Source of the DNA: the human T2T-CHM13v2.0 reference genome, Homo sapiens
DNA length: 64,000 bases
Reading direction: 5' to 3' (one strand)
NCBI RefSeq assembly: GCF_009914755.1
Contig: NC_060925.1
Shown: positions 5,461-59,515 of the stretch, piece by piece
How the letters are laid out: every line of letters begins with the position of its first letter
Position numbering within the stretch: the stretch's first letter is position 1
Position numbers and translations under genes: made by a program
Notes under the pieces: generated by a model
What the model was told of the DNA's origin: nothing
Databases searched by the model: none
The model's input: the letters and a program-made list of their open reading frames with translations, nothing else

Positions 5461-5589
5461 TATGACCACTTTCTTGAAAAGGTTGGAGAAATCAGACTTT
5501 TTAAAGAGGACAAGGCTGCCAAATGGGAACCAATAGGAAACATAACAAAAATTATTTAATATATTTAAAATGTGTTAAAATGTGTTTTT

Positions 5590-5711
5590 TTTTTGGAGAT
5601 AGAATCTCACTCTTGTCTCCCAGGCCGGAGTGGGCGCAATCTTGACTCACTGCAACCTCCGCCTCCCAGATTCAAGCAATTCTCCTGCCTCAGCCTCCCA
5701 AGTAGCTGGGA
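5590..5711 (-). mobile_element. 5'-truncated Alu (right-arm fragment, AluS-like)
   Basis: Poly(T) followed by gagatagaatctcactc...cagcctcccaagtagctggga; TSD taaaatgtgttttt (5576-5589) / taaaatgtattttt (5712-5725). Confidence 0.9.
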
Positions 5712-6490
5712 TAAAATGTATTTTTAAAATATACATTTATAATTGTGACTAACCTGCCCTTGACATATTCTAAATGACGTTACTGAGATTTTACTAAGGA
5801 GTTGAGTTCTGTGAAGTTGACTGAAGAAGAATTAACAAGTAAGTCTGACACTGTGATTGTGATTCCAGGGTGGATGGCCATTTAGAAAGACCTTGAACGT
5901 TTAGGTAGAGGGTCATAAGTAACTGCTACATATTGAAGGCTTCAGAAACATATTCCCCATGAAAACATGCTGAGCTATTTGTCTACATCTTAGTTATTTT
6001 GGGCCTGCCAAATAGCAGTCCCAGTTGGGACTGTATGTCTGGGTCACCTGGTTCTTGCTATAGTGTGGATTTCTTTCAGCAGACAGGCAGCGGGGTCGGT
6101 TTCTTAATTGTTAACTCTAGTAAAGGATACTTGTCCAGAAGACAGCTGCCAAATTGCTAGACAGGCTTATCTACGCTCTGGAACATTTTATTCACACACT
6201 GCTTCTAATGTGGCCCATCTTCTAAAGAGGTTTCTGCCATTAGTTTTTGAGACAAAATTTCATTCTGCCCTGTAGTCTCATTTTTTTGACTGTTGGCCTT
6301 AAGAGGGTTATTACTTTGTTGGCTAAAGAGTGCTAAAATTTTATGACATGCCATATGGAACCAAAGAAATAAGGAGATGACCTCTGTTGCACTGTATCAT
6401 TAGGACTGAATATCACCTGTCTCCTGCCTTCAGCCATTTTCCTGGCCCCTGGATGAGGTCTGTACCAGTGGTCTGAATTAATATTGTTTT

Positions 6491-6716
6491 GGCTCCTAAA
6501 AGCTACAATTTCCCTGAAGTGGCAGTTGTGGTAGAGCACTTTTTCCCTCTTTCCAATTTCCTAGATACGTCCATACATGGAATTGAAATGGCCTCTTTCT
6601 ACCTGCTGTGCGCATGGGACCTCTACACCTGTTCAGTCATGAAACCACTAATGAGACCTCACCTGTCCTATTCAGGATTTTGACGGAATATGAAATCTCA
6701 TTACCCGGAGTCAATG
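6491..6716 (+). repeat. Donor copy of a 226-bp local direct duplication
   Basis: Matches 7786-8011 with 4 substitutions. Confidence 0.95.
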
Positions 6717-7218
6717 AATGACATCTGTTCCCCATCCCCCTCCTGAAGCCATCATTCCATTTGCTTGGTGCTGTGAAAAAGATGCGCCACTCAGAGAAGA
6801 AATTAGAGTCCAGAAGAGAAGGTGGCGCTCCCTTGTCCAGCCAGACGGCAGCTACCGGGCTTCTCAATATTCTGGCCCCCATTTAGACCTTTGCCCTAAA
6901 AGAATTAACACAAAAGAAACTTCATTGTTTCCGACTTAAAAAAAATTCTGATGATTTGTTTCAGAAACAAGTCAAATCCTTAGCAATGTGGGGTTTTATT
7001 GATAAGGAAGATAAGGAAGATCTTAACCTGAAAACGTCTAGCTAACAAAAACTCCTGCTGACCTGATTTAAAGTGGGTGTGAATGTAAAGGATATTTATA
7101 TACTTTGGTCTTTCTCAAATCATTCTTTTGGAAAGAGAAGGTATAAATAAATGCACATGAATATAATACATAAATAATACTATAACATTTTTGTTTGGGG
7201 AGTATTCATAGTAATATA

Positions 7219-7297
7219 GTAGGTCGGTGCAAAACTAATTGCAGTTTTGCCATTACTTTTAATACCAAAAACCGCAATTACTTTTGCACCAAACTAA
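7219..7297. mobile_element. MADE1 MITE (Hsmar1-derived)
   Basis: About 80-bp near-palindrome gtaggtcggtgcaaaactaattgc...gcaattacttttgcaccaaactaa, flanked by TA dinucleotides. Confidence 0.92.
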
Positions 7298-7364
7298 TAA
7301 TATATGTAACACACAATCAATATAAAATACCACCAAATTAATTTGTCTAATGCATTTTCATTGT

Positions 7365-8090
7365 TTTCATTCATTTGCTATTCATTCATTGATGAAAATG
7401 TTCACTAAAGAAGCATTTATTGAGTATCTAATGTGTGTCAAACACTATAATTGCTTCTGTGAATACAAGGATGAATACATTTAATGTTTAGAAGAGGAGA
7501 AATGATAAAGTAAATAATGATAGGCCATGTGGTAAGTCCTATAGCAGGTGGGTGGGAGAGAGTGAGAGCATTCCTGCCTGGGATGTGAAGACCTCAGAGG
7601 GTGGAAAAGGGATCATAGGGTGGCCAGGAAGACAAAGGTAGGAGACCACTCAAGGTAAAGGAAGCAGCCTGTATAAAGATAGGCAGGCAGGAAACAGAAT
7701 CTCAGGTTTGGAGACTTCTAAGGACTTAGACTGGCTGGAGGAGAGAGATAATGTTAGGCAGATTCTTCAGGGTCAGATCATGCAGGGCTCCTAAAAGCTA
7801 CAATTTCCCTGAAGTGGCAGTTGTGGTAGAGCACTTTTTCCCTCTTTCCAATTTCCTAGATACGTCCACACATGGAATTGAAATGGCCTCTTTCTACCTG
7901 TTGTGCGCATGGGACCTCTACACCTGTTCAGTCATGAAACCACTAATGAGACCTCCCCTGTCCTATTCAGGATTTTGATGGAATATGAAATCTCATTACC
8001 CGGAGTCAATGCCAACTTATGCCAACTTATGGCAACTTATGCCAACCTTTATGCCAACTTAAAGAGTATGGTTCTTTTTGCTGCAAAAGA
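7365..8090 (-). mobile_element. L2 3' fragment, interrupted by the templated insertion at 7786-8061
   Basis: ttcattcatt...catttattgagtatctaatgtgtg; cagatcatgcagggc is a typical L2 motif; L2-like aaagagtatggttctttt resumes after 8060. Confidence 0.7.
7786..8061 (+). repeat. Inserted copy of 6491-6716 followed by about 5 tandem atgccaactt units
   Basis: Direct sequence comparison; gccaacttat gccaacttat ggcaacttat gccaaccttt atgccaactt a at 8011-8061. Confidence 0.95.
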
Positions 8091-8701
8091 AACTTTTTGT
8101 TTGTCAAGAGTAGACTCTCAATAAAATTTTATTGAGCAAAAGTGAATTGCACTGAAGATTTCTTTTTAATTTTAATTTTTTTGGTGAAAGAGTTAAGTGA
8201 ACACTGGTAACAACTGAACCACAATAGATTATGCTGTCATGAAAACAAGTCCCCAGCTCTGTTCCTTCCCACTTAGATGAGGTTTCACTCCCCAGAGGCA
8301 GCCCCTTCTGCTGCTACTCCTCCTACAATTTTCTGTCCTTTGGCTCTAATCTGGACTCATTGTTCCCTCTGTTTGCTGTACAGCTGTCATCCTGGCTTTT
8401 CTCCTACTCCTCTCCTAGGTTATACCTCTATCTCTTGGTTCCTATATTGGCCTCTTTCTTTGTTTATGCCTTTGTTTTGCTGGAGTAGCTCCTTAAGAAA
8501 ACTATTCCCTGAAGTAATTTTCTCTTCTTTTTCAAACTCCCTTTAATCTTTATTCTCTCTTCCCAATCCACTCTTATCCCTCACTTAGGCAACCATTTCC
8601 AATGTGCTTAATGTGCTCTTCTTGCATGATATGTTCTTGCAAAGTGTATATTCTTTTGTTTGTATACTTTTTTTTTAATGTAAGTAAATGGCATGCACTA
8701 C

Positions 8702-9377
8702 TGTGTTGGCCATTTACCTGTAACTTCTCAGATCAATTTCCCGCATTTTTCTTGCTCTGTTCTATTTCACACATAAGGGGATGACCCCAAAAAAACTGCA
8801 TTTCTCAGACTTGCCTGGCTTCTGGTTAATTTTGGCAAATAGGAGGCACTGAGATTAGAATAAAGGAGGTAGGAAAATGTCGGTGTATTCCCTCTATCCT
8901 AGCTTCTGCCTAGGTGGTGACTTTGATGGTGGCTACATCTCCATTGTGCTTCTAGCACCAGCCAGGTGGCCTAGATTCCAGGCTCCAGTGATGTCCCCTT
9001 ACTTTTCTCTTTATTCTTCTGGCACATGCATTTTCAAGGGTGGAATCTTGCCACTAAAGGGGCTAATATTGTTCTTGGGGGAGGGGAATCCTGCTTTTTA
9101 TGTAGAAAGCACAGATATACTAACAGTGCACGGATAGATATTCAGCGTATCATGGTAGGGGATGATTAGAAAAAATATACCTGAAAAGTCTTGGAGGAAA
9201 AACAATGAAATAAAGGTGAAGAAACTGCATCAGTTGTTGGCTTCTGTACTGCCTTACACTCCTTTATTTGCTCTTTGAAGCTCTTCTAGAATGTTGAATT
9301 AATTTTCTATATTAAATAACCCCTATTTAACGACCTGGCATAAGTTCTGTTTTCTGGGAAGGATTCTTACTGACACA
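8702..9377 (+). mobile_element. LTR33-like solo LTR (ERVL)
   Basis: TG...CA ends, 'ctggcttctggtt...ttggcaaataggaggcactg', attaaa signal and 'ttctgttttctg...ctgacaca' terminus. Confidence 0.65.
9026..9229 (-). mobile_element. MER112-like hAT-Charlie DNA transposon nested in the LTR33
   Basis: catgcattttcaaggg...ttcttggggg...aaagcacagatatac...gattagaaaaaa...aaaggtgaagaaactg matches the recalled MER112 reverse complement. Confidence 0.65.
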
Positions 9378-9576
9378 GCTACGTTTTTCATGTCTTTTAC
9401 ATTTTATCCTCTCTAAGCATTTTATTAGTTAAACCTGTTAGATAAAACAGATGTAACAAATAAATACAAATCTATTTGTTAGATCTGTTAGATTTGTTAG
9501 ATAAAATGTTCTCTAAGCATTTTATTTGTGAGGTCAATCCATACTGCTATGTGTATATCCAATCCCTTGTTTCTAG

Positions 9577-18257: not shown

Positions 18258-21200
18258 TTTTTTAAAAATTATTTTTATTTGTAATTTTTGTGGGTACATA
18301 GTAGGTGTATATATTTATGGGATACATGAGATATTTTGATACAGGCATGCAATATGTGATAATCTCATCGTGGTAAATGGGGTATCTATACTCTCAAGCA
18401 TTTTTCTTTTGTGTTACAAACAATCCAATAAAGCCTTTTAGTTACTTTAAAATGTACAATTAAATTATTATTGACTATAGTCACCCTGTTGTGCTATTAA
18501 ATACTAGGTCTTATCCATTCTTTCCAACTATTTTTGTACCCATTAACCATCCCCACCCCGCTGCCGCCATGCCCCCACTATCCTTCCCGGCCTCTGATAA
18601 CCATCATTCTCCTCTCTATCTCCATGAGTTCAATTGCTTTAATTTTTAGCTCTCACAAATGAGTGGGAACATGTGAGGTTTGTCTTTCTGTGCCTGGCTT
18701 ATTTCACTTATTGTAATGACCTCCAGTTCTATCCATGTTGTTGCAAATGACAGGATCTCATTTTTTTATGGTTAAATAGCACTCTATTGTGTATTAATAA
18801 CAGATTTTTTTTATCCATTCATCTGTTGATGTACATTTAGTTTGCTTCCAAATCTTGGCTATTGTGAATAGTGCAATAAACACGAGAGGGCAGATATCTC
18901 TTCAATATCCTGATTTCCTTATTTTGGGGTGTGTACCTAGCAGTGGGATTGCTGGATTGTATGGTAGTTCTATTTTTTTTTGTTTTTTTGAGAAACATTC
19001 AAACTGTTCTACATAGTGGTTGTACTAATTTACATTCTCACCAACAGTGTACGAGGGTTCCCTTTTCTCCACATCCTCACCAGCATTTCTTATAGCCTGT
19101 CTTTTAAGTAAAAGTCATTTTAACTGAGGTAAGATGATATCTCACTGTAGTTTTGATTCGCATTTCTCTGATGATCAGTGATGTTGAGCACCTTTTTATA
19201 TGCCTGCTTGCCATTTGTATGTCTTCTTTTGAGAAATGTCTATTCAGATCTTTTGTTCATTTAAAAAATTGGATTATTAGATTTTTTTCCTATGGAGTTA
19301 TTTGAGCTCCTTATATATTCTAGTTATTAATCCCTTGTCAGAGGGATAGTTTGCAAATATTTTCTGCCTTTATGTGAGTTGTCTCTTCACTTTCTTGATT
19401 GTTTCCTTTGCTGTGCAGAAGCTTTTTAACTTGATGTGATTCCATTTGTACATTTTTGCCTTGATTGCCTGGGCTTGTGAGATATTACTCAAGAAATCTT
19501 TGCCCAGACCAATGTCCTGGAGAGTTTCCCCAATGTTTTCTTATAGACATTTCATAGTTTAAGGTCTTAGATTTACATCTTTAATCTATTTTGATTTGAT
19601 TTTTGTACATGGTGAGAGATAGGGGTCTGGTTTCATTCTTCAGAATATGGATATCCAGTTTTCCCAGCACCATTTATTGAAGAGACTGTCTTCCCCAATA
19701 TATGTTCTTGGCATCATTGTCGAAAATGAGTTCTCTCTAGGTATGTGCATTTGCTTCTGGGTTCTCTATTGCATTCCATTGGTCTGTGCATTTGTTTTTA
19801 CTCCAGTACCATGCTGTTTTGGTTACCATAGCTCTGAAGTATAATTTGAAGTTAGGTAATGTAGTTTCTTCAGTTTTGTTCTTTTTGCTCAGGATAGCTT
19901 TGGCTCTTCTTGGTCTTTTGTGGTTCCATATAAATTTTAGGATTGTGTTTTCTATTCCTGTGAAAAATGTCATTGGTATTTTGATAGGAATCATGTTGAA
20001 TCTGTAGATTGCTTTGGGTAGTGTGGATATTTTAACAATATTCATTCTTCCAATCCATGAACATGGAATATCTTTCCATTTTCGTGTGTCCTCTTCAATT
20101 TATTTCATAGGTTTTATAGTTTTTATTATAGAGATCTTTCACTTCTTTGGTTAAGTTAAATTAATTCCTAGTTGTTTAATTTTATTTGTGGCTATTGTAA
20201 GTGGGATTACTTTTTAAATTCCTTTTTCAGATTGTTCAGTGTTAGCATATAGAAATGCTATTGATTTTTGTATGTTAATTTTGTATCCTGCAACTTTACT
20301 GAATTTGTTTATAAGTTCTAATAGTTTTTTTGCAGTTTGTTTGTAAGTTCTAATAGTTATAAGTTCTAATAGTTTATAAGTTCTAACAGTTTTTCCAACT
20401 ACGTTATATCATCTGCAAATGAGGATCATTTGACTTTTTTCTTCTCAATCTGAATGCTATTAATTTTTTTCTCTTATGCGATTGCTCTAGTTAGAACTTT
20501 CAGTACTATGTTGAATAACAGTGGTGAAAGTGGGCATCCTTGTCTTGTTCCAGATCTTAGAGGAAAGGCTTTCAGTTTTTCCCCATTCAATATAATATCT
20601 GCTATGGGCCTGCCATTCACGGCTTTTATCATGTTGAGGTATGTTTCTATACCCAGTTTTTTGTGTTTTCTTTTTTAAAAATCATGAAGGGATATTGAAT
20701 TTTATTAAATGCTTTTTTAGCATCAATTGAAATGATCATATAAATTTTTTCCTTCATTCTGTTGATATGATGTACCACAGTAAATGATTTACATATGTTG
20801 AACCATTCTTGCATCCCTGGAATAAATCCCACTTGGTCATGATGAATAATCTTTTTAATGTATTGTTGAATTTGGTTTGCTAGTATTTTATTGAGTATTT
20901 TTGCATCAATATTAATAAGGGATATTGGCCTGTAGTTTTCTTTGTGTTTTTGATGTGTCTTTGGTTTTACTATGACGGTAATACTGTCTTTGCAGAATGA
21001 GTTTGGAAGTAGTCCCTTCTCCTCTATTTATTGGAATTGTTTGAGTAGAATTGGTATTAGTTCTTCTTTAAATGGTGGAATTCAGCAGTGAAGACATCAG
21101 GTCCTGGGGTTTTCTTTACTAGGAGACTATTACTGTTTCATCTTGTTACTTGCTATTGGTCTGTTTAGGCTTTGGGTTTTTTCATAAGATTGTGTTTTTC

Positions 21201-24200
21201 AATCTCGGTAGGTTGTATGTGTCTAGGAATTGATTCATTTCCTCTAGATTTTCCAGTTTATTGGCATATAGTTCCTCCTAGTGGCCACTAATGATCCTTT
21301 GAATGTCTGTGATATCAGTTATAATGTCTCCTTTTCCATCTTTGATTTTATTTACTTGAATATTCTCTTTTTTTCTTAGTCTGGCTAAAGGTTTGTCACT
21401 TTTGTTTATCTTTCAAAAAACCAACTTTTTGTTTCATTGGCCTTTTCTTTTGCTGTTTCAATTTCATTTATTTCTGCTCTGATCTTTATTAGTTCTTTTA
21501 GGAATTTGGGGTTTGGTTTCCTCTTATTTTTCTCGTTCTTTACGATGCAACATTAAGTTATTTGAAGTTTTTTCTCTTTTTTGATGTAAGCACTTATGGC
21601 TGTATATTTCCCTTTTAGAATTGCTTTCACTTTCACTGTATCCTACAGGTTTTGCTGTATTGTGTTTTCATTATCATTTGTTTGAAGGAATTTTTCAGTT
21701 TCCTTCTTTTTAAAAATTTTTAATAGAAACAGGTTCTTGCCATCTTGCCCAGGCTGATTTTGAACTCCTGGCCTCAAGCGATCCTCCTGCTTTGGCCTCC
21801 CAAAGTGCTAGGATTACAGATGTGTGCCATGATGCCTGGTCTCAATTTCCTTCTTAATTCTTCATTGACCTATGGTCATTCAGGAGGATATTGCTTAATT
21901 TCCATGTGTTTGTATAGTGTCCAAAATTCCTCCTCTTGTTGATTTCTAGTTTTATTCCTTTGTGGTTAGAGAAGATGCTTAATATTAGTTCAATTGTTTT
22001 GAATGTTTTAAGACTTGTTTTGTAATTTAATGTGTAGTCTATCCTTGAGAATGATCCATTTGCTAAGGAGGAGAATGTGTATTCTGCAGCTGTTGGATGG
22101 AATGTTCTGTAAATACCTATTAGGTCCATTTGCTCTACAGTGTAGATTAAATCCAATGTTTCTTGTTGATTTTCTGTTTAGAAGATCTGCCCAATGCTGA
22201 AAGTGAGGTGTTGGAATTTGTAGCTATTGTTGAATTGAATTCTAACTCTTTCTTTAGCTCTAATAAAATTTGCTTTATGTATCTGGGTACTCCAGTATTG
22301 GGTACATATATATTTACAATTGTTATATCCTGTTGCTGAATTGACCCCTTTATCATTATGTAATGACCTTCTTTGTCTCCTCTTATAGTTTTTGTCTTAA
22401 AATCTATTTTGTCTGATATAAGTTTAGGTACTCCTGCTTTTCTTTGGTTTCCATTGACATGCAATATCTTTTTCTGTCTCTTTATTTTCAGCCTCTGTTT
22501 ATCTTTATAGGTGAAGTGCATTTCTTGCAGGCAACAGATCATTAGATCTTGCTTTTTCATTCATTCAGCCACTCTGTATCTTTTTTATTGGAGAGTTTAG
22601 CCCATTTACATTCAATGTTATTATTGATAAGTAAGGATTTACACATGCCATTTTGTTATTTGTTTTCTGATTGTTTTGTGTTTATCTCTTCCTTTTTTTC
22701 TTCTTTCCTGTCTTCCTTTTAGTGAAGGTGATTTTCTCTGGTGATATGTTTTAATTTCTTGCTTTTTCTTTTTTGTATATCTATTGCATGTTTTTTGATT
22801 TGAGGTTACCATGAGACTTGCAAATACTGTCTTATAATCCATTATTTTAATCTGATAACAACTTAACCCTGTTCCAAACAAACAAAAATAAAACTAATAA
22901 AGACTCCATGTCTTAACTTTGTTCCCTGCTTTTTAACTTTTTGTTCTTTCTCTTTATGTCTTATTGTACTGTCTATGTCCTGAATAGTTGTTGTAGTTAT
23001 TATTTTTGATTGGTTCATTATTTAGTCTTTCTACTTAAGATGTGAGTAACTTACACCTTACAATTACAGGATTATAATATTCTGTGCTTGTCTATGCAGT
23101 TACTATTACCAGTGAGTTTTGTACCTTCAGATGATTTCTTATTGCTTATTAATGTCCTTTTCTTTCAGACTGAAGAACTTCCTTTAGCATTTCTTGTAGG
23201 ACAGGTCTGGTGTTGATGAAACCCCTCAGCTTTTGTTTGGGACAGTCTTTATTTCTCTTTCATGCTTGAAGGAGGATACTTTCACTGAATATACTCTTAT
23301 GGGGTAAAAATTTTTTCCTTCAGCATTTTAAATATGTCATGCAACTTTTTCCTCGCCTGTAGGGTTTCAGCGGAAAAGTCTGCTGCTAGATGTATTGGAG
23401 CTCAATTGTGTATTTTTTTTTCTCTTTCTTGCTGCTTTTAAGATCCTTTCTTTATCCTTGACCTTTGGGAGTTTGATTATTAAATGCTTTGAGGTATTTA
23501 ATACCTCAAAACCTCTTTGGGTTAAATGCCTTGAGGTATTTAATACCTCAATACCTCTTTAGATTAAATCTTCTTGATGTTCTATAACATTTTTGTATTT
23601 GAATGTTGATACCTTTCTCTAGGTTTGGGAAATTCTCTGATATTATCCCTTTGAATAAACTTTCTACCCCTATCACTTTCTCTATTTCCTTCTTAAGGCC
23701 AATAACTTTTAGATTTGCCCTTGTGAGGCTATTTTCTGGATATTGAATGTGTGCTTTATTGTTTTTTATTCTTTTTTTTTCTTTTGTCTCCTCTGGCTGT
23801 GTCTTTTCAAATAGCCTATCTTCAAGCTCCCTAATTCTTCTGCTTGATCAGTTCTGCTACTAGGAGACTCTGATGCATTCTTCAGTATGTGAATTGCATT
23901 TTTCAACTCTAGAATTTGGCTTGATTGTTTTTAATCACTTTAATCTCTTTGTTATATTTATCTGATAGAATTCTGCATTCCTTCTCTGTGATATCTTGAA
24001 TTTCTTTTTTTCTCAAAACAGCTACTCTGAATTCTCTGACTGAAAGGTCACATATGGCTGTTTCTCCAAGATTGGTCCCTGGTGCTTGGTTTACTTCATT
24101 TGACAAGGTCATATTTTCCTGGCTGGTCTTGATGCTTGTAGATGTTCTTTGGTGTCTGGGCATTGAAAAGTTACGTACTTATTGTAGTTCTCACAACGTG

Positions 24201-31139: not shown

Positions 31140-33443
31140 TGATATGGTTTTGCTCTGTGTCCCCACCCAAACCTCATCTTGAATTGTACTCCCATAATTC
31201 CCATGTGTTGTGGGAGGAACCTGGTGGGGGATAATGGAATCATGGGGGCAGTTTCTCCCACACTGTTCTCATGGTAGTGAATAAGTCTCACGAGATCTGA
31301 TGGTTTGATAAGGGGAAACCCATTTCACTGGGCTCCCATTCTCTCTTTTTGCCTGCTGCCATCCATGTAAGACATGACTTGCTCCTCCTTGTCTTCTACT
31401 ATGATTGTGAGGCCTTCTCAGCCGCTTGGAACTGTGAGTCTAATTAAACCTTTTTCTTTTGTACATTGCCCAGTCTCAGGTATGTCTTTATCTTAGAAAA
31501 CAGACTCATACAGTAAATTGGTGCCAGTAGAGTGGGGTGTTGCTGAAAAGATACCTGAAAATGTGGGGGCGACTTTGGAACTGGGTAACAGGCAGAGGTT
31601 GGAACAATTTGGAAAGCTCAGAAGAAGACAAGAAAATTTGGGAAAGTTTGTAACTTCCTAGAGACTTGTTGAATGACTTTGACCACAAGCCTGACAGCAA
31701 TATGGACAATAAGGTCTAGGCTGAAGTGGTCTCAGATGGAGATGAGGAAGTTGTTGGGAACTGGAGCAAAGATATGTGTTGTTGTTGTGTTTTAGCAAAG
31801 AGACTGGTGGCATTTTGCCCCTGCCCTAGAAATCTGGGAAACTTTGAACTTGAGAGAGATGATTTAGGGTATCTGGTGGAAGAAATTTCTAAGCATCAAA
31901 ACATCTAAGGGGTGACTTGGGATGTGTTAATTCAGACTTGGGATGTTAAAGGTATTCAGTTTTATAAAGGAAGCAGAGCATAAAAGTTTGTAAAATTTAC
32001 AGCCTGACAATGTGATAGAAAAGAAAATCCCATTTTCTGAGGAGAAATTCAAGTTGGCTACAGAAATTTGCATAATTAATGAGGAGCTGAATGTTAATCC
32101 CCAAGACAATGGGGAAAATGTCTCCAGGGCATGTCAGAGGTCTTCTTGGCAGCCTCTCCCATCACAGGTGTGGAGACCTAGGAAGAAAATATAGTTTCCT
32201 GGGCTGGGCCCAGGGTCTCCGTGCTGTGCACAGTCCAGGGACTTGGTGCCCTGCATCCCAGCTGCTCCAGCCATGACTAAAAGGGGTCAAGGTACAGCTT
32301 GGGCCATGGCTTCAAAGGGTGTAAGCCCCAAGCTTTGACAGCCCCAACATGATGTCGAGCCTGAGGGTGCACAGAAGTCAAGAATTGGGGTTTGGGAACC
32401 TCCACCTAGATTTCAGAAGATATATGGAAACGCCTGGATGCCCAGGCATAAGTTTGTTGCAGGGGCAGGGTGCTTGTGGAGAACCTCTGCTAGCACAGAA
32501 GGGAAATGTGGGTCAGAGCCCCCACACACAGTGCCTACTGGGGCACTGCCTAGTGAAGCTGTGAGAAGAGGGCCACTGTCCTTCAGACCCCAGAATGGTA
32601 GATCCACTGACAATTTGCACACTTCACCTGGAAAAGGTGGCTGTACTCTGCAAAGCTACAGAGATGGAGCTGCCCAAGACCATGGGAACCCACCTCTTGC
32701 ATCAGCATGACCTGGATATGAGACATGGAGTCAAAGGAGATCATTTTGGAGCTTTAAGATTTGACTGCCCTGCTGGAGTTTGGACTTGCATGGGGCCTGT
32801 AACTCCTTTGCTTTGGCCAATTTCTCCCACTTGGAATGGCTGTATTTACCCAATGCCTATACCCCCTTTGTATCTAGGAAGTAATTAACTTGCTTTTGAT
32901 TTTACAGGTTTATAGGTGGAAGGGACTTGCCTTGTCTCAGACAAGACTTTGGACTGTTGACTTTTCAGTTAATATTGAAATAAGTTAAGCCTTTGGGGGA
33001 CTACTGGGAAGGCATGATTGGTTCTGAAATGTGAGGACATGAGATTTGGGAGGGGTCAGGGGCAGAATGATATGGTTTGGCTCTATGTCTCCACCTAAAT
33101 CTCATCTTAAATTGTACTCCAATAATTCCCACTTGTTGTGGGAAGAACCTGGTGGGAGATAATTGAATCATGGGGGCAGTTTGCCCCATACTGTTCTCAT
33201 GGCAGTGAATAAGTCTCATGAGATCTGATGGTTTGATAAGGGGAAACTCATTTCACTTGGCTCTCATTCTCTCTTTTTGCCTGTTGCCATTCATGTAAGA
33301 AGTGACTTGCTCCTCCTTGTCTTCCACCATCATTATGAGGCTTCTGCAGCCACGTGGAACTGTGAGTCCATTAAACCTTTTTCTTTTGTAAATTGCCCAG
33401 TCTTGGGTATGTCTTTATCAGAGCATGAAAACAGACTAATACA
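31140..33443 (+). mobile_element. Full-length THE1C-like MaLR provirus (5'LTR 31140-31512, internal 31513-33067, 3'LTR 33068-33443)
   Basis: Paired tgatatggttt...taca LTRs; PBS-like tggtgccagtagagtgggg after the 5'LTR; purine tract ggaggggtcaggggcagaa before the 3'LTR; THE1-int peptides. Confidence 0.95.
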
Positions 33444-33887
33444 GGTATTACTCAAATGTCCACTTTTTCTTCTCCTATAGGGTTCTCTTCCTCTGAAGAG
33501 TTAGGAAAGAATAGGAGTTGTCCCCAAATTGTCCACCCCATCTTCATACACTCCTCCCAATGCCTTCCAAGCCCCCAGGCCCACCCTGCCTGAAATTCCT
33601 GCCCATGGTCCCCATGATACCTCCATAGGCTGCAGCTCCCTCCAGGCAGCCATTAGAGGACTGAGGATGTGGTTCACCCACACTGGACTGCCCATCTCTT
33701 GTTCCCCAGTACCCTCTCACAGGGGTGTACAGGTATGTTATTGAATAAAAGGTTTAGGGTAAAGGGGGGATATTTAATGTTGTTCAAATTATGACTTTCC
33801 CCACATTCCATGGAAAACTCACCTGAAAAGAGAAATTTTAATGGGGGTCCTCTCATAATTGCCATAGTTGTTAACTTTGTAGGCCAC

Positions 33888-34557: not shown

Positions 34558-35089
34558 TGACTTTCCAAGGCCACTATCAATTTTTAGAGACAGTCCAGCG
34601 GAAAATCATAGCATGAAACACTTTTACAACAGCCTGGTTCTTTGCATGGTGCTGTTCTCACAATGGCACCGCTCACATTTTTATGTAGCATAACAGTAGT
34701 TTAACTCATCTCACTCTTTCTCTACTCCCATCTTCAAATTGTGTTTCCTTAGGCCCAAAAGGAATAAAAAACAGAGCTACCCCTGAGCCACATACTTGTT
34801 TGTGGATGCTCCCCTAGCCAGATGAAGTACAAGGCCCCTGCTAAAGCCTCATAAAGCCTCATTAAATTCTTAGGTCCAGGTAATCTCGCATCTGAGTCTC
34901 TGCCTGGTGGCTGGGGAACAGGTGTGTGCATGTGGAGGTTCATTCTTGCAGTTACTTCAGTAAATGCTGAGTAATGTACATCATTTAATAAAGCATATGA
35001 GACAAAGCATGTCACATTTTAACCTGTCAACCGTCTTTCCATTTAAGTCACATTTTATAAGATAAGTGATATATCTAAATGCTTTATTT

Positions 35090-35640
35090 CTAAAATCCCC
35101 TTCTTGGTCTGGCTGGTTCACCCCTTCCCACACTTCAGGTCTGTTTGTGTGTCACCTCTGGTCTTTGCTTATGCTTTTCATCATAATACCCTGTTTATTT
35201 CTTTCAATCTTGCGTTTATTAATTTACTTGTTTATTACTTGTTTTTCCTTTCTAGAATGTAAATTACTCCATGGAAAGACAATATCTGACTTACCCACTG
35301 TTGAATATCCAGCATAAGGTACATAGTAGTTATCCATAAATGTTTGCTAATTTGAGAGGGCAGAATAGCCTGGAGGTAAATAGTGTGTCTTGAGGGCCAG
35401 GCTGCCTGGCTATGAATCCTAGCTGTCCTCTTTACTAGCTGTGTTCTGTTCCTTCTGGAAACTCAGTGTCAGTGGAGCATCCAATTCATAGAGCCTATTC
35501 CTGAGGCACTTCTCTGTGCCTGTTTCTCCATTTTTTTGAACAGAGATAATAATAGTCCCTATATCACAGAGTTGTTGTAAGCATTAAATGAAGCATAAAA
35601 ATATATGAAAAGTGACACATATTGAATACTATGTGAGTTA
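35090..35640 (+). mobile_element. L2 3' end followed by MIR
   Basis: ctagaatgtaaattactccatg...catagtag...ataaatgtttg; ctgcctggctatgaatcctagct...tctctgtgcctgtttctccat...gttgttgtaagcattaaatga. Confidence 0.65.
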
Positions 35641-43633: not shown

Positions 43634-43847
43634 CAGTTTATGTCCTTACTATGCTCAAAGAAATATCTCTTGATTCTGTTACTTCTTTATCCTTCTTATT
43701 CCTTCTCTTCTCAGTGTCTAAACCAATGGGTTACTTTATCAGTTTATGCCCTTACTATGCTCAAAGAAATATCTCTTGATTCTATTACTTCTTTATCCTT
43801 CTTATTTCTTCTCTTCTCAGTTTCTAAACAAATGGGTTACTTTATCA
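43634..43847 (+). repeat. 106-bp tandem duplication (2 copies)
   Basis: cagtttatg.ccttactatgctcaaag...gggttactttatc repeated at 43634 and 43740; 5 substitutions. Confidence 0.95.
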
Positions 43848-44199
43848 CTACAATGATTTCATTTTCTGTAATATTTACCTCTTGAATATTCCAGTTTGAC
43901 TTTCCTCCTCATCATTCTTTGAAGTCTTCCTACCTTCAGCTATCTATGTAATCACAGATATTTAATAATTATTTGATGCCACAAATACAAAGATCTATAC
44001 ACTTTGATTTTAGTTGCCCAACTTCTTTTGGCTTCTCTTTGGCAGTTCTTAGTAAATTTTGTTTTGGGGATGCCCATTCTCAAGGACAGGGGTATACTTA
44101 CCTATTTTTGCTTCCAAACTGAACATCAAAACAAAGCATCTGACAAATGTTTGGAATGATGAAATGAATGGATGCAAAGCTCACACTTGTATTATTTGT

Positions 44200-46130
44200 G
44201 TCATTCATTCATTTATTAATTTTTAAACAAATTTATATATAGGGTTTTTGCTGTGTGCCAGACCCTGTTTTAGGTGGTAGGCATCCAATATAGCCATGGT
44301 TCTTGTTCTCATGGAATGTATATTCTAAAAGAGGAAGAGGGAGCAGGAAATAGACAAACACATAAAAGTACTAATTTCAGATGGTTATAAATGTTATGAG
44401 GGAATTAAAGTAGGAGGTTGTTAGAGAGAGTGATAGAGGAGGTGGGATTAGTGGGCTATTTTAGGTAGGAGTTCAGAGGAGTTACTCTGAGGTGGTTACA
44501 TTTAACCTGAGACCCATTGTGATCAGAAGAAACCAAACATGGGACGATCCAGAAGAAGAACCTTGCAGGTAGAACACACAGTTAGTGCAAACATTTGAAA
44601 TGAGACAAATCTCAGTGTGTTCAGAAAACAGAAAGCTAGTGTGCCTGAATTTTAATAAGTCAGAGAAATGAGCTCATACATGTCAGGGGTCAAATTATAC
44701 AGGGTTTTAAAGGCAGCAGAAGGAGAAATGGGGAACCATTGGGAAGTTGTAAACAGGAAAGGGACATGATCTGATTAATATTTTAAAATATTTCGTTGGC
44801 AGCCAAAGGGAACAATTAGGAGGCTATTGCATAAGATCAGGTGATAGATGAATGTGTCATGAGCTAGAGTGGCCGGAGTGGTGATGGACATAAATGAATT
44901 TGAGACATTCTCTGGAGTTAGAGTTGATGGACCTCATAATTTGTTATAGGGGATTATCAGAGAAAGAGGTGAAGAATGACTTTTAGGTTTTGGTTTAGAA
45001 ACTTGGTACACAATAATGCCATTGCTGAAATGGGGATGACTGGAAGAGGAGCAGAATAGGAGGTAGAAAATTAAGCACTCTATTTGGACACATTGTATTT
45101 GAGATTTTGATTAGAGCTTCATGTAGAAATGCCAACTAGGCAGTTGGACAGCCAACTAAGGTTTAAGGGTGAAATTTGTACTGGAGGTCTCCCTTGGAAG
45201 TCATCAGTCTATAGATGGCGTTGAAGCCATGAAACTGGATGAGATCCCAAGCGAGTGAGGAAAGATAGAAAGGAGGGGTCTTTAGACCCAGTGTGGGACA
45301 TACCAGGGTTTAGAGGGGAAGCTGAGGATGATGAGCTGGCAAAAGAGATCAAAAAGGAGACATCTGTGGTTTGTAGGAAAACCAGGATATTGTGGTGTAT
45401 TAGTCTGTTCTCACACTACTATGAAGAACTGCCCGGGAATGGGTAACTTATAAAGGAAATAGGCTTAATTGACTCACAGTTCTGAATTGTTGGAGAGGCC
45501 TCAGGAAACTTATAATCATGGTGGAAGGGGAAGCAGGCACATCTTACATGGCAGCAGAAGGGAGAGAGAGTGAAAGGGGAAGAGACCCTTATAAAATCAT
45601 CAGATATCATGATAACTGACTCATTATCATGAGAATAGCATGGGGGAAACTGCCCCCATGATCCAATCACCTCTCACCAAGTTCCTCCCTTGACACGTGG
45701 GGATTACAATTCGAGATGAGATTTGGGTAGGGACACAGAGCCAAATCATATCATGTGGTGTCATAAATGACAAAAGAAGAGCTTATTTTAGTGAGGTGGT
45801 GGTTGAGAAGTTGAGTTGGATGAGGTCAGAAAAATGATCACCGTGTTTGGCAATGTGGAGTTTACTGGTGACCTTGAAAAGAGCAGTCACTGTGCAATGG
45901 TGGGAACAGAAATCTGATTAAGGTAGGAAGAAGAGAGATTGGGAAGTGAGGAAATGGATATGATGACCATTGATAGCTTTCCAGACGTTTTGCTGTGAAA
46001 TGAGAGCAATAGCTGGACAGAAACGGAATCGAGAGGAGATTGTTGTTTATGTTATTCGTTATGGAGAATTTTCACGCTTCCTGGGGATATTTATCTATTT
46101 CTTAGAGCAAGGGAAAAATTGGTGTTAGGA
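44200..46130 (-). mobile_element. Long L2 fragment, split by a THE1D LTR
   Basis: tcattcattcatttatt...tgtgtgccagaccctg; ggaggctattgc; tagg cagttgga; ctggtgaccttg. Confidence 0.8.
45396..45753 (-). mobile_element. THE1D/MSTA-like solo LTR
   Basis: tgtattagtctgttctcac...ccaaatcatatca; perfect 5-bp TSD tgtgg (45391-45395 / 45754-45758). Confidence 0.93.
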
Positions 46131-58900: not shown

Positions 58901-59011
58901 AAAAACAAAACAAAAACAATTCCTTAAATTATCTGAACATTTTAGTCTTTTCCCTCCCTTTTTCTCACTTCTTTTCCCCTCTAAGGACACAGCAAGAGTA
59001 AGCGGAAGCTA

Positions 59012-59091
59012 TTAGGTTGGTGCAAAAGTAATTGAGGTTTCGGCCATTACTTTCAATGGCAAAAACCACAATTACTTTTTCACCAACCTAA
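59012..59091. mobile_element. MADE1 MITE (Hsmar1-derived)
   Basis: 80-bp ttaggttggtgcaaaagtaattg...caattactttttcaccaacctaa with TA TSDs. Confidence 0.95.
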
Positions 59092-59515
59092 TACTTCATG
59101 GTGGTGACCCTGGAGTTTTCTTGCTATCATCCAAACACTTTTAAAATACCTTTATTTTGGATTGTTTTAAATCCATTGTTTTACAAACAGTGAATTTAAA
59201 TTGAGGACCTCCTCCTCTGGCTGGAGTGCCCTGAAGAATTGTCCTTTATGCTAAGGAAAGGTAATTCTTAGGAGGGAGTCTCCTTTAAAGAGCCCCAAGC
59301 TAACGGCTCAATAATAATAATAATAATAACAATAAAAAATGCCATTCATCGGCTATCTACTATGGACCTGGCCCTTTATGAATGCTCTATTCAACCTCAC
59401 AACATCCTTTCAAACTACTATTATTTATCCCCACTTTAAAGCATAGAAAATTGAGTCTCAGAGTTAAGTGAATTGATTAACTTTACAAAGCTTAATACAT
59501 GATGAGGCTGGGATT

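What the first reader, a model, noticed from the sequence alone, without database searches (positions are those of the whole stretch)
6491..8061. 226-bp templated insertion copied from 1.3 kb upstream, followed by iterated 10-mer synthesis
Seen: 6491-6716 reappears at 7786-8011 with 4 mismatches (about 98% identity). It sits in the middle of an L2, with no poly(A) and no TSD. The left junction shares ggc with the L2 motif 'catgcagggc'. The right junction shares atg with about 5 imperfect copies of atgccaactt, after which L2-like sequence resumes. Inference: a double-strand-break repair scar with template switching and repeated re-priming (Pol theta-mediated end joining or MMBIR-like). High identity makes it among the youngest events in the window. 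It duplicates non-repetitive DNA, so any regulatory motifs in it are doubled.
Basis: partly seen in the sequence, partly recalled or inferred. Interest (0 to 1): 0.7.

Follow-up and report, generated by a model that had tools for sequence, protein, structure and literature searches.

The report
Ordinary DNA-break repair scar
A 257-base insertion in an old repeat on human chromosome 1 consists of a copy of nearby DNA plus stuttered copies of its own flank; it is likely the scar of one repaired chromosome break, a kind already catalogued by the hundreds, with no function shown.

Summary
The duplication is real: 6491-6716 recurs at 7786-8011 with 4 substitutions and has no other close copy in the genome. 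A profile from 29 paralogues of the host repeat places its resumption at 8046, not after 8061. The net insertion is therefore 7789-8045 (257 nt): 223 nt copied from 1.3 kb upstream plus 34 nt of filler, with 0-1 nt of host lost. The last 10-mer (8051-8060) is native flank and the template of the other units; two TTA trimers 10 nt apart set the period. This fits the 'repair-mediated duplications' of Pace et al. 2009 (824 human cases; MH+filler subtype). I did not find this locus in their table. Most likely one germline break was repaired by long templated synthesis, then four abortive rounds of Pol theta-type re-priming; no enzyme is shown. Age is loose (about 1-23 Myr), and no ape or population data could be reached. 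Nothing shows a regulatory effect. Verdict: a new member of a known class, a clean example, low interest.

The parts
6491..6716 (+). Donor (template) segment; no sign of being a dispersed repeat
   Evidence: 2 close copies in the genome; 28 loci sharing one donor 19-mer show no flank similarity above null
7393..7788 (-). Left part of the host repeat (L2 by recall, 3' end pointing left), interrupted at 7788
   Evidence: HMM from 29 paralogues hits 7393-7790, E 1.2e-13 (partly circular, as paralogues were picked on 7770-7788); motif has 35 genome hits vs 0 for the reversed control
7786..7788 (+). Junction 1: 3-nt microhomology GGC shared by host and donor start (6491-6493)
7789..8011 (+). 223 nt copied from donor 6494-6716, direct orientation, 4 substitutions (one a CpG-to-TpG in the copy, 7979)
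8009..8011 (+). Junction 2: 3-nt microhomology ATG shared by donor end (6714-6716) and right flank 8051-8053
8012..8045 (+). 34-nt filler: four successive copies (8, 10, 10, 6 nt) of right flank 8049-8061, one substitution (8032)
   Evidence: maps each unit onto 8049/8051-8058/8061
8046..8093 (-). Right part of the host repeat, resuming with 0-1 nt lost; holds the 10-mer template (8051-8060) and TTA trimers at 8049 and 8059
   Evidence: anchored profile score 17.7 bits at 8046, best of 411 starts (8047 second, 15.2); 0 of 1500 random starts reach it

Best explanation
This is a 257-nt insertion (223 nt copied from 1.3 kb upstream plus 34 nt of stuttered right flank) that splits an old repeat with 0-1 nt lost, likely left by one error-prone repair of a germline double-strand break. 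Shown: the templates, the junction microhomologies and the resumption point. Inferred order: the left broken 3' end, ending in GGC, primed on the donor's lower strand at 6491-6493 and copied 223 nt. Its new end (ATG) annealed 5 nt inside the right end's overhang, extended 8 nt to TTA and came off. It re-primed three times on the TTA at 8049-8051, adding 10, 10 and 6-7 nt, and finally joined at the very end of the right flank. The unpaired flap on the right end thus shrinks from 5 to 3 to 0 nt. The short rounds were likely made by polymerase theta (TMEJ, 'direct repeat / cross-junction' templated insertions). The 223-nt tract was likely made by a more processive SDSA- or MMBIR-type step. The insertion is likely neutral.
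For: Single close paralogue. The host repeat continues across the insert. Every inserted base has a local template, and the first four priming events each have a 3-nt match (GGC, ATG, TTA, TTA; the third TTA round likewise), the final join 0-1 nt. The period equals the spacing of the two native TTA trimers. The odd fourth unit is explained as a partial copy fused to native flank. Size (257 nt), donor gap (about 1.07 kb), 3-nt microhomology and 34-nt filler all lie inside the ranges of Pace et al. (up to 619 bp, peak near 1.2 kb, MH 2-9 nt, filler 1-68 nt). Aborted Pol theta synthesis with re-priming gives direct-repeat insertions (PMC7165422). TMEJ closing an extended SDSA end is shown in C. 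elegans (PMC8654963) and inferred for the human germline (PMC7615360).
Against: No empty allele was seen; the breakpoint rests on a profile of old paralogues. The ungapped version of that test was weak: 42-65 of about 128,000 window positions scored as high, and nhmmer did not report the right remnant as a hit. A 4-nt microhomology was available within 15 nt of both ends and was not used, so this was not a microhomology-poor site. Left-derived sequence next to the left end and right-derived next to the right end cannot come from two resected tails copying each other alone; one step needs an intact duplex, a sister chromatid or a released fragment (my inference). Direction of synthesis and the enzymes are not determined. 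Later slippage could have added units.
Confidence: 0.72

Rival explanations
1. Same repair-mediated duplication, but only one or two 10-mer copies date from the repair; ordinary replication slippage added the rest later.
For: The final sequence is identical under both readings; the event may be up to about 10-23 Myr old, leaving time.
Against: A scar with only the partial unit would slip as a 12-mer, not the observed 10-mer, so at least one full 10-mer had to be made at repair (units listed). Two further gains in a two-unit array are rare (recalled).
Confidence: 0.12
2. No two-ended break: a stalled fork's nascent strand switched back 1.3 kb, then forward, slipping repeatedly (FoSTeS / MMBIR / serial replication slippage), without Pol theta.
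For: Gives a lower-strand template for the 223-nt tract naturally. Multi-switch insertions with microhomology occur as germline variants (PMC8421209 passages). A hairpin-forming MITE lies between donor and break (7217-7299).
Against: The short rounds match Pol theta's reported tract length and template distance. No canonical G4 motif in 6000-8600. Sequence alone cannot separate this from the best explanation.
Confidence: 0.12
3. Two independent events: a 1.3-kb tandem duplication at the GGC match, later mostly deleted.
For: Would give the same final order of segments.
Against: The deletion would have to end within 0-1 nt of the first junction out of about 1,295 positions.
Confidence: 0.02
4. 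Retrotransposition or RNA-templated capture of a local transcript.
For: RNA-linked insertions at breaks exist in cells (bioRxiv 2022.09.30.509517, abstract).
Against: No poly(A) tail, no target-site duplication, and the flanks show no T-rich L1-endonuclease-type site (motif recalled). No annotated transcript covers the donor. None of 39 proximal cases examined by Pace et al. had poly(A).
Confidence: 0.02

Closest known systems
Repair-mediated duplications (RDs), Pace, Sen, Batzer, Feschotte 2009, PMC2671141; related to the 'doublets' of Thomas et al. (as cited there; not read)
   Same: Insertion of at least 50 bp interrupting a transposable element; single donor within 5 kb; microhomology plus filler; no poly(A). 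The MH+Filler subtype was 5 of 39 proximal cases examined.
   Different: Longer than their mean acceptor (257 vs 162 bp) but within range. The filler here is fully traceable to the flank; the sections I read give filler sizes, not templates. Not found in their Table S1 by position or by distance.
Pol theta templated insertions, direct-repeat / cross-junction class (PMC7165422; PMC11541566)
   Same: 6-10-nt rounds copied from within 20 nt of the break, primed on 3-nt matches, repeated.
   Different: The 223-nt tract from 1.07-1.3 kb away is outside the usual range (distal templates under 0.1% of repair).
TMEJ of extended SDSA intermediates (PMC8654963; PMC7615360)
   Same: Long templated extension followed by microhomology joining with templated filler.
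   Different: Those products are side-by-side tandem duplications; here priming was ectopic and the copy is 1.07 kb from its donor.
MMBIR-type templated insertions (PMC8421209) and break-proximal insertions (bioRxiv 2022.09.30.509517)
   Same: Several template switches at short microhomology; donors within 2 kb of a break, median insert 120 bp.
   Different: In the Indel-Seq system the donors flank other induced breaks and joining needs DNA-PK; pathway membership cannot be read from this sequence.

Membership tests
Repair-mediated duplication (Pace 2009) | Insertion >=50 bp interrupts a TE whose two parts are contiguous in the consensus (within 30 bp) | tested here: met
   257-nt insert; host profile resumes at 8046, 0-1 nt lost. 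Profile from 29 genomic paralogues, not a curated consensus; family name recalled.
Repair-mediated duplication (Pace 2009) | [quoted passage not shown] | tested here: met
   2 matches genome-wide. That search cannot see old repeats (control); the motif-and-flank test found no family in 28 of 75 non-self motif hits examined.
Repair-mediated duplication (Pace 2009) | Donor 50 bp to 5 kb from acceptor, not tandem | tested here: met
   Gap 6716 to 7786 = 1,069 nt
Repair-mediated duplication (Pace 2009) | Microhomology, filler or small deletion at breakpoints; no poly(A) | tested here: met
   3-nt microhomologies, 34-nt filler, no tail, no TSD
Repair-mediated duplication (Pace 2009) | Empty orthologous site in an outgroup primate | not testable with these tools
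   No primate genomes held; three supplement look-ups gave nothing usable
Pol theta templated insertion (TINS), for the 34-nt filler | >=5 bp synthesis templated within 50 bp of the break, direct or inverted | tested here: met
   Template 8049-8061, 3-15 nt from the break, direct (definition)
Pol theta templated insertion (TINS), for the 223-nt tract | Template within 50 bp of the break, short tract | tested here: not met
   Template 1.07-1.3 kb away, 223 nt
Pol theta templated insertion (TINS) | Genetic dependence on POLQ | not testable with these tools
   Historical germline event
L1-mediated retroposition | Poly(A) tail and target-site duplication | tested here: not met
Dispersed repeat family (donor) | Many related copies sharing flanks | tested here: not met
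   Flank scores 18.9/17.8 vs null 18.4/17.7 for 28 loci; positive control (host motif) 23.8 vs 18.5

The most novel reading that the evidence does not exclude
The scar records a hand-off in the primate germline from long ectopic synthesis to iterative Pol theta end joining, and this is how most 'repair-mediated duplications' were closed: their unexplained filler would be flank-templated, and their donor-distance peak near 1.2 kb would mirror the 1-2 kb resection of meiotic breaks. The class would then be a dated fossil record of meiotic break repair gone wrong.
Probability: 0.2. Interest if true: 0.5.

Novelty: new member of a known kind. Interest (0 to 1): 0.2.

Why it matters
The locus itself matters little: intergenic, 21 kb from the nearest annotated gene, no annotated functional element, one of at least 824 such events. 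Its value is as an unusually legible example, since every inserted base and each priming step can be traced. If the filler of the published cases proves flank-templated in general, the class would become a genome-wide, datable readout of germline end joining. That is a question about the class, not something this locus shows.

Tried and rejected
Dating from published ape variant tables failed: the supplement of PMC10461412 is too large to read. The ape-specific variant table of PMC6749001 is held cut; it had no chr1 row at the expected place, but also no row for 5 neighbouring genes, so chr1 coverage is doubtful and the blank means nothing. The readable supplements of PMC4419785 (10 kb of text) gave no match. 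All hg18/hg19/hg38 positions searched were converted from recall. Unseen supplements may hold the age or polymorphism of this insertion. Ungapped profile test of the resumption point: best at 8046 at all four lengths but not significant window-wide; replaced by an anchored gapped test. Rfam scan 5500-9500: nothing on donor or copy; sub-threshold mir-548 matches on the MITE and one weak match at 7388-7471. No canonical G4. Regulatory signal: 9 CpG in 6491-6940, reached by 1.6% of 254 overlapping GC-matched windows (bounds chosen after looking); the donor alone has 4, reached by 8.2% of 292; not taken as evidence. A text search for LINC01761/FLJ31662 listed 2 papers with one mention each, not read. 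Rejected: dispersed repeat; assembly artefact (4 substitutions plus a distinct filler); reversed direction (only the 7786 copy splits a repeat). I did not sample the genome for the frequency of this architecture: the fetch cap would yield only a few cases.

Full report
Observation. 6491-6716 and 7786-8011 are an ungapped direct repeat of 226 nt, 1,295 nt apart start to start, with 4 substitutions at 6574/7869, 6606/7901, 6661/7956 and 6684/7979. The last is a CpG in the donor and TpG in the copy. A 10-mer array follows at 8009-8061. A search of the whole genome found these two copies only, for the 226 nt and for 6000-7210. That search is blind to old repeats: the host repeat 7393-7788 found only itself. 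I therefore tested one donor 19-mer. It had 77 hits with up to 2 mismatches against 14 for the reversed control, an excess, but the 28 non-self loci fetched (of 75) share no flank with the donor: mean scores 18.9 and 17.8 against nulls of 18.4 and 17.7. The host motif, as positive control, gave 23.8 against 18.5. The donor is not detectably a dispersed repeat.

Where the insertion ends. The 19 nt left of the junction (7770-7788) has 35 genome hits with up to 1 mismatch against 0 for the control. I used 29 of the 34 non-self hits, those fetched as loci; they were chosen on the left motif only, so what follows them is independent of the window's right flank. They form an old dispersed family; an HMM from them hits 7393-7790 (E 1.2e-13, partly circular) and two other places in the window. 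I recognise the family as L2 from memory; no tool named it. An ungapped profile of the downstream bases scored best at 8046 of 611 starts at all four lengths tried, but 42-65 of about 128,000 window positions scored as high, and nhmmer did not report the short right remnant. An anchored, gapped profile gave 17.7 bits at 8046, the best of 411 starts (8047: 15.2), and none of 1,500 random starts reached it (maximum 12.3). The host therefore resumes at 8046 or 8047 with 0-1 nt lost, and runs to about 8093. The net insertion is 7789-8045: 223 nt from the donor and 34 nt of filler.

The filler. The fifth (8051-8060) is native host sequence and is the template. The unit at 8009 matches flank 8051-8061, those at 8019 and 8029 match 8049-8061 (one substitution), and the one at 8039 matches 8049-8058. 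The flank holds TTA at 8049 and 8059, ten bases apart, which sets the period. The irregular fourth unit is a partial copy running into the native CCTTT at 8046-8050. Junction matches: GGC (host end / donor start), ATG (donor end / flank 8051-8053), TTA three times, and 0-1 nt at the last join. There is no terminal poly(A) and no target-site duplication.

Mechanism. Shown: templates, microhomologies, resumption point. Inferred: a break between 7788 and 8046; the left 3' end primed at the donor and copied 223 nt; it then annealed by ATG 5 nt inside the right overhang, made 8 nt, and re-primed three times on TTA (10, 10, 6-7 nt) before joining at the terminus. On this order the unpaired flap falls from 5 to 3 to 0 nt, which is why I prefer priming from the left; the reverse direction is not excluded. 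A strand argument (mine) limits the options: resected tails copying each other would put right-derived sequence next to the left end and left-derived next to the right end, the opposite of what is seen. One step therefore needed an intact duplex, a sister chromatid, or a released or fill-in fragment. The short rounds match Pol theta: aborted synthesis with re-priming, first tracts rarely over 10 bp, templates typically within 30 bp (PMC7165422, passages), and a template peak within 20 bp of breakpoints (PMC11541566, passages). The 223-nt tract does not match. TMEJ closing an extended SDSA end is shown in worms (PMC8654963, passages) and inferred for human meiotic breaks, which are resected 1-2 kb per side (PMC7615360, passages). 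Against a simple TMEJ story, a 4-nt match lay within 15 nt of both ends and was not used. Fork-based MMBIR (PMC8421209, passages) and later slippage of the array give the same sequence and remain open.

What is known. Pace et al. 2009 (PMC2671141; I read parts 1-4 of 8 of the text, further passages, part 1 of 15 of Table S1 and three searches of it) found 824 human insertions of this kind: inside transposable elements, donor within 5 kb, distance peak near 1.2 kb (which they warn may be a method artefact), mean 162 bp, maximum 619 bp, microhomology 2-9 nt, filler 1-68 nt. This locus meets every criterion I could test; the empty orthologous site could not be tested. It was not in Table S1 by position (hg18 converted from recall) or by distances 1068-1073. 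Break-proximal donors are also seen in cells (bioRxiv 2022.09.30.509517, parts 1-2 of 7). Listings of searches showed no title re-reading this class as Pol theta products; I saw only listings, the library lacks most subscription papers, and I do not claim the idea is unpublished.

Age. Four differences give 0.5-4.5%: 1.1-10.4 Myr at Pace's rate of 2.2e-9, or 2.4-23 Myr at 1e-9 per site per year (rate recalled). Among Table S1 rows at 1.5-2.1% divergence, the call showed 29 of 37 matches, 23 of them proximal: 2 human-specific, 5 human-chimpanzee, 6 with orangutan, 5 with macaque, 5 all primates. Of the 7 with donors of 150 nt or more, 5 were human or human-chimpanzee. An African-ape-lineage origin, fixed in humans, is my best guess; 9 of 10 human-specific cases tested by Pace et al. 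were fixed. Three attempts to date it from published tables failed (PMC10461412 nothing read, PMC6749001 and PMC4419785 passages only).

Function. None shown. The supplied annotation lists no functional element, and the nearest gene is 21 kb away. The donor region is mildly CpG-rich, a post hoc signal. Rfam finds nothing on donor or copy.

Verdict. Observation real, right boundary corrected to 8045; interpretation right in kind; a new member of a known class. Interest 0.2.

Noticed in passing
window 7217-7299: 83-nt palindromic element (32-nt arms, 84% complementary) between donor and break, with sub-threshold mir-548 matches; a relative at 59010-59093. A MADE1-type MITE by recall.
   Followed up: partly
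window 9397-9540: Patchwork of short direct repeats (17, 12, 11 nt) and fold-back inverted repeats (9-10 nt) within 140 nt; looks like a second end-joining scar with templated synthesis.
   Followed up: partly
window 20307-20392: Iterated 15-19-nt unit, four imperfect copies, at the edge of a masked repeat; another possible iterated-synthesis scar.
   Followed up: partly
window 23479-23569: 42-nt tandem duplication around a near-palindrome with 8-11-nt arms.
   Followed up: partly
window 43634-43847: 106-nt tandem duplication, 95% identity.
   Followed up: no
window 31140-33444: Two 374-377-nt direct repeats, 88% identical, 1.55 kb apart, with TG...CA-type ends and a third relative at 45396-45754; likely the two LTRs of a THE1/MST-type element (name recalled) that forms most of exon 4 of LINC01761.
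   Followed up: no
window 7405-7430 and 8111-8136: [quoted passage not shown]
   Followed up: no
window 44197-44912 and 35081-35376: Two further copies of the host repeat family in the window.
   Followed up: no
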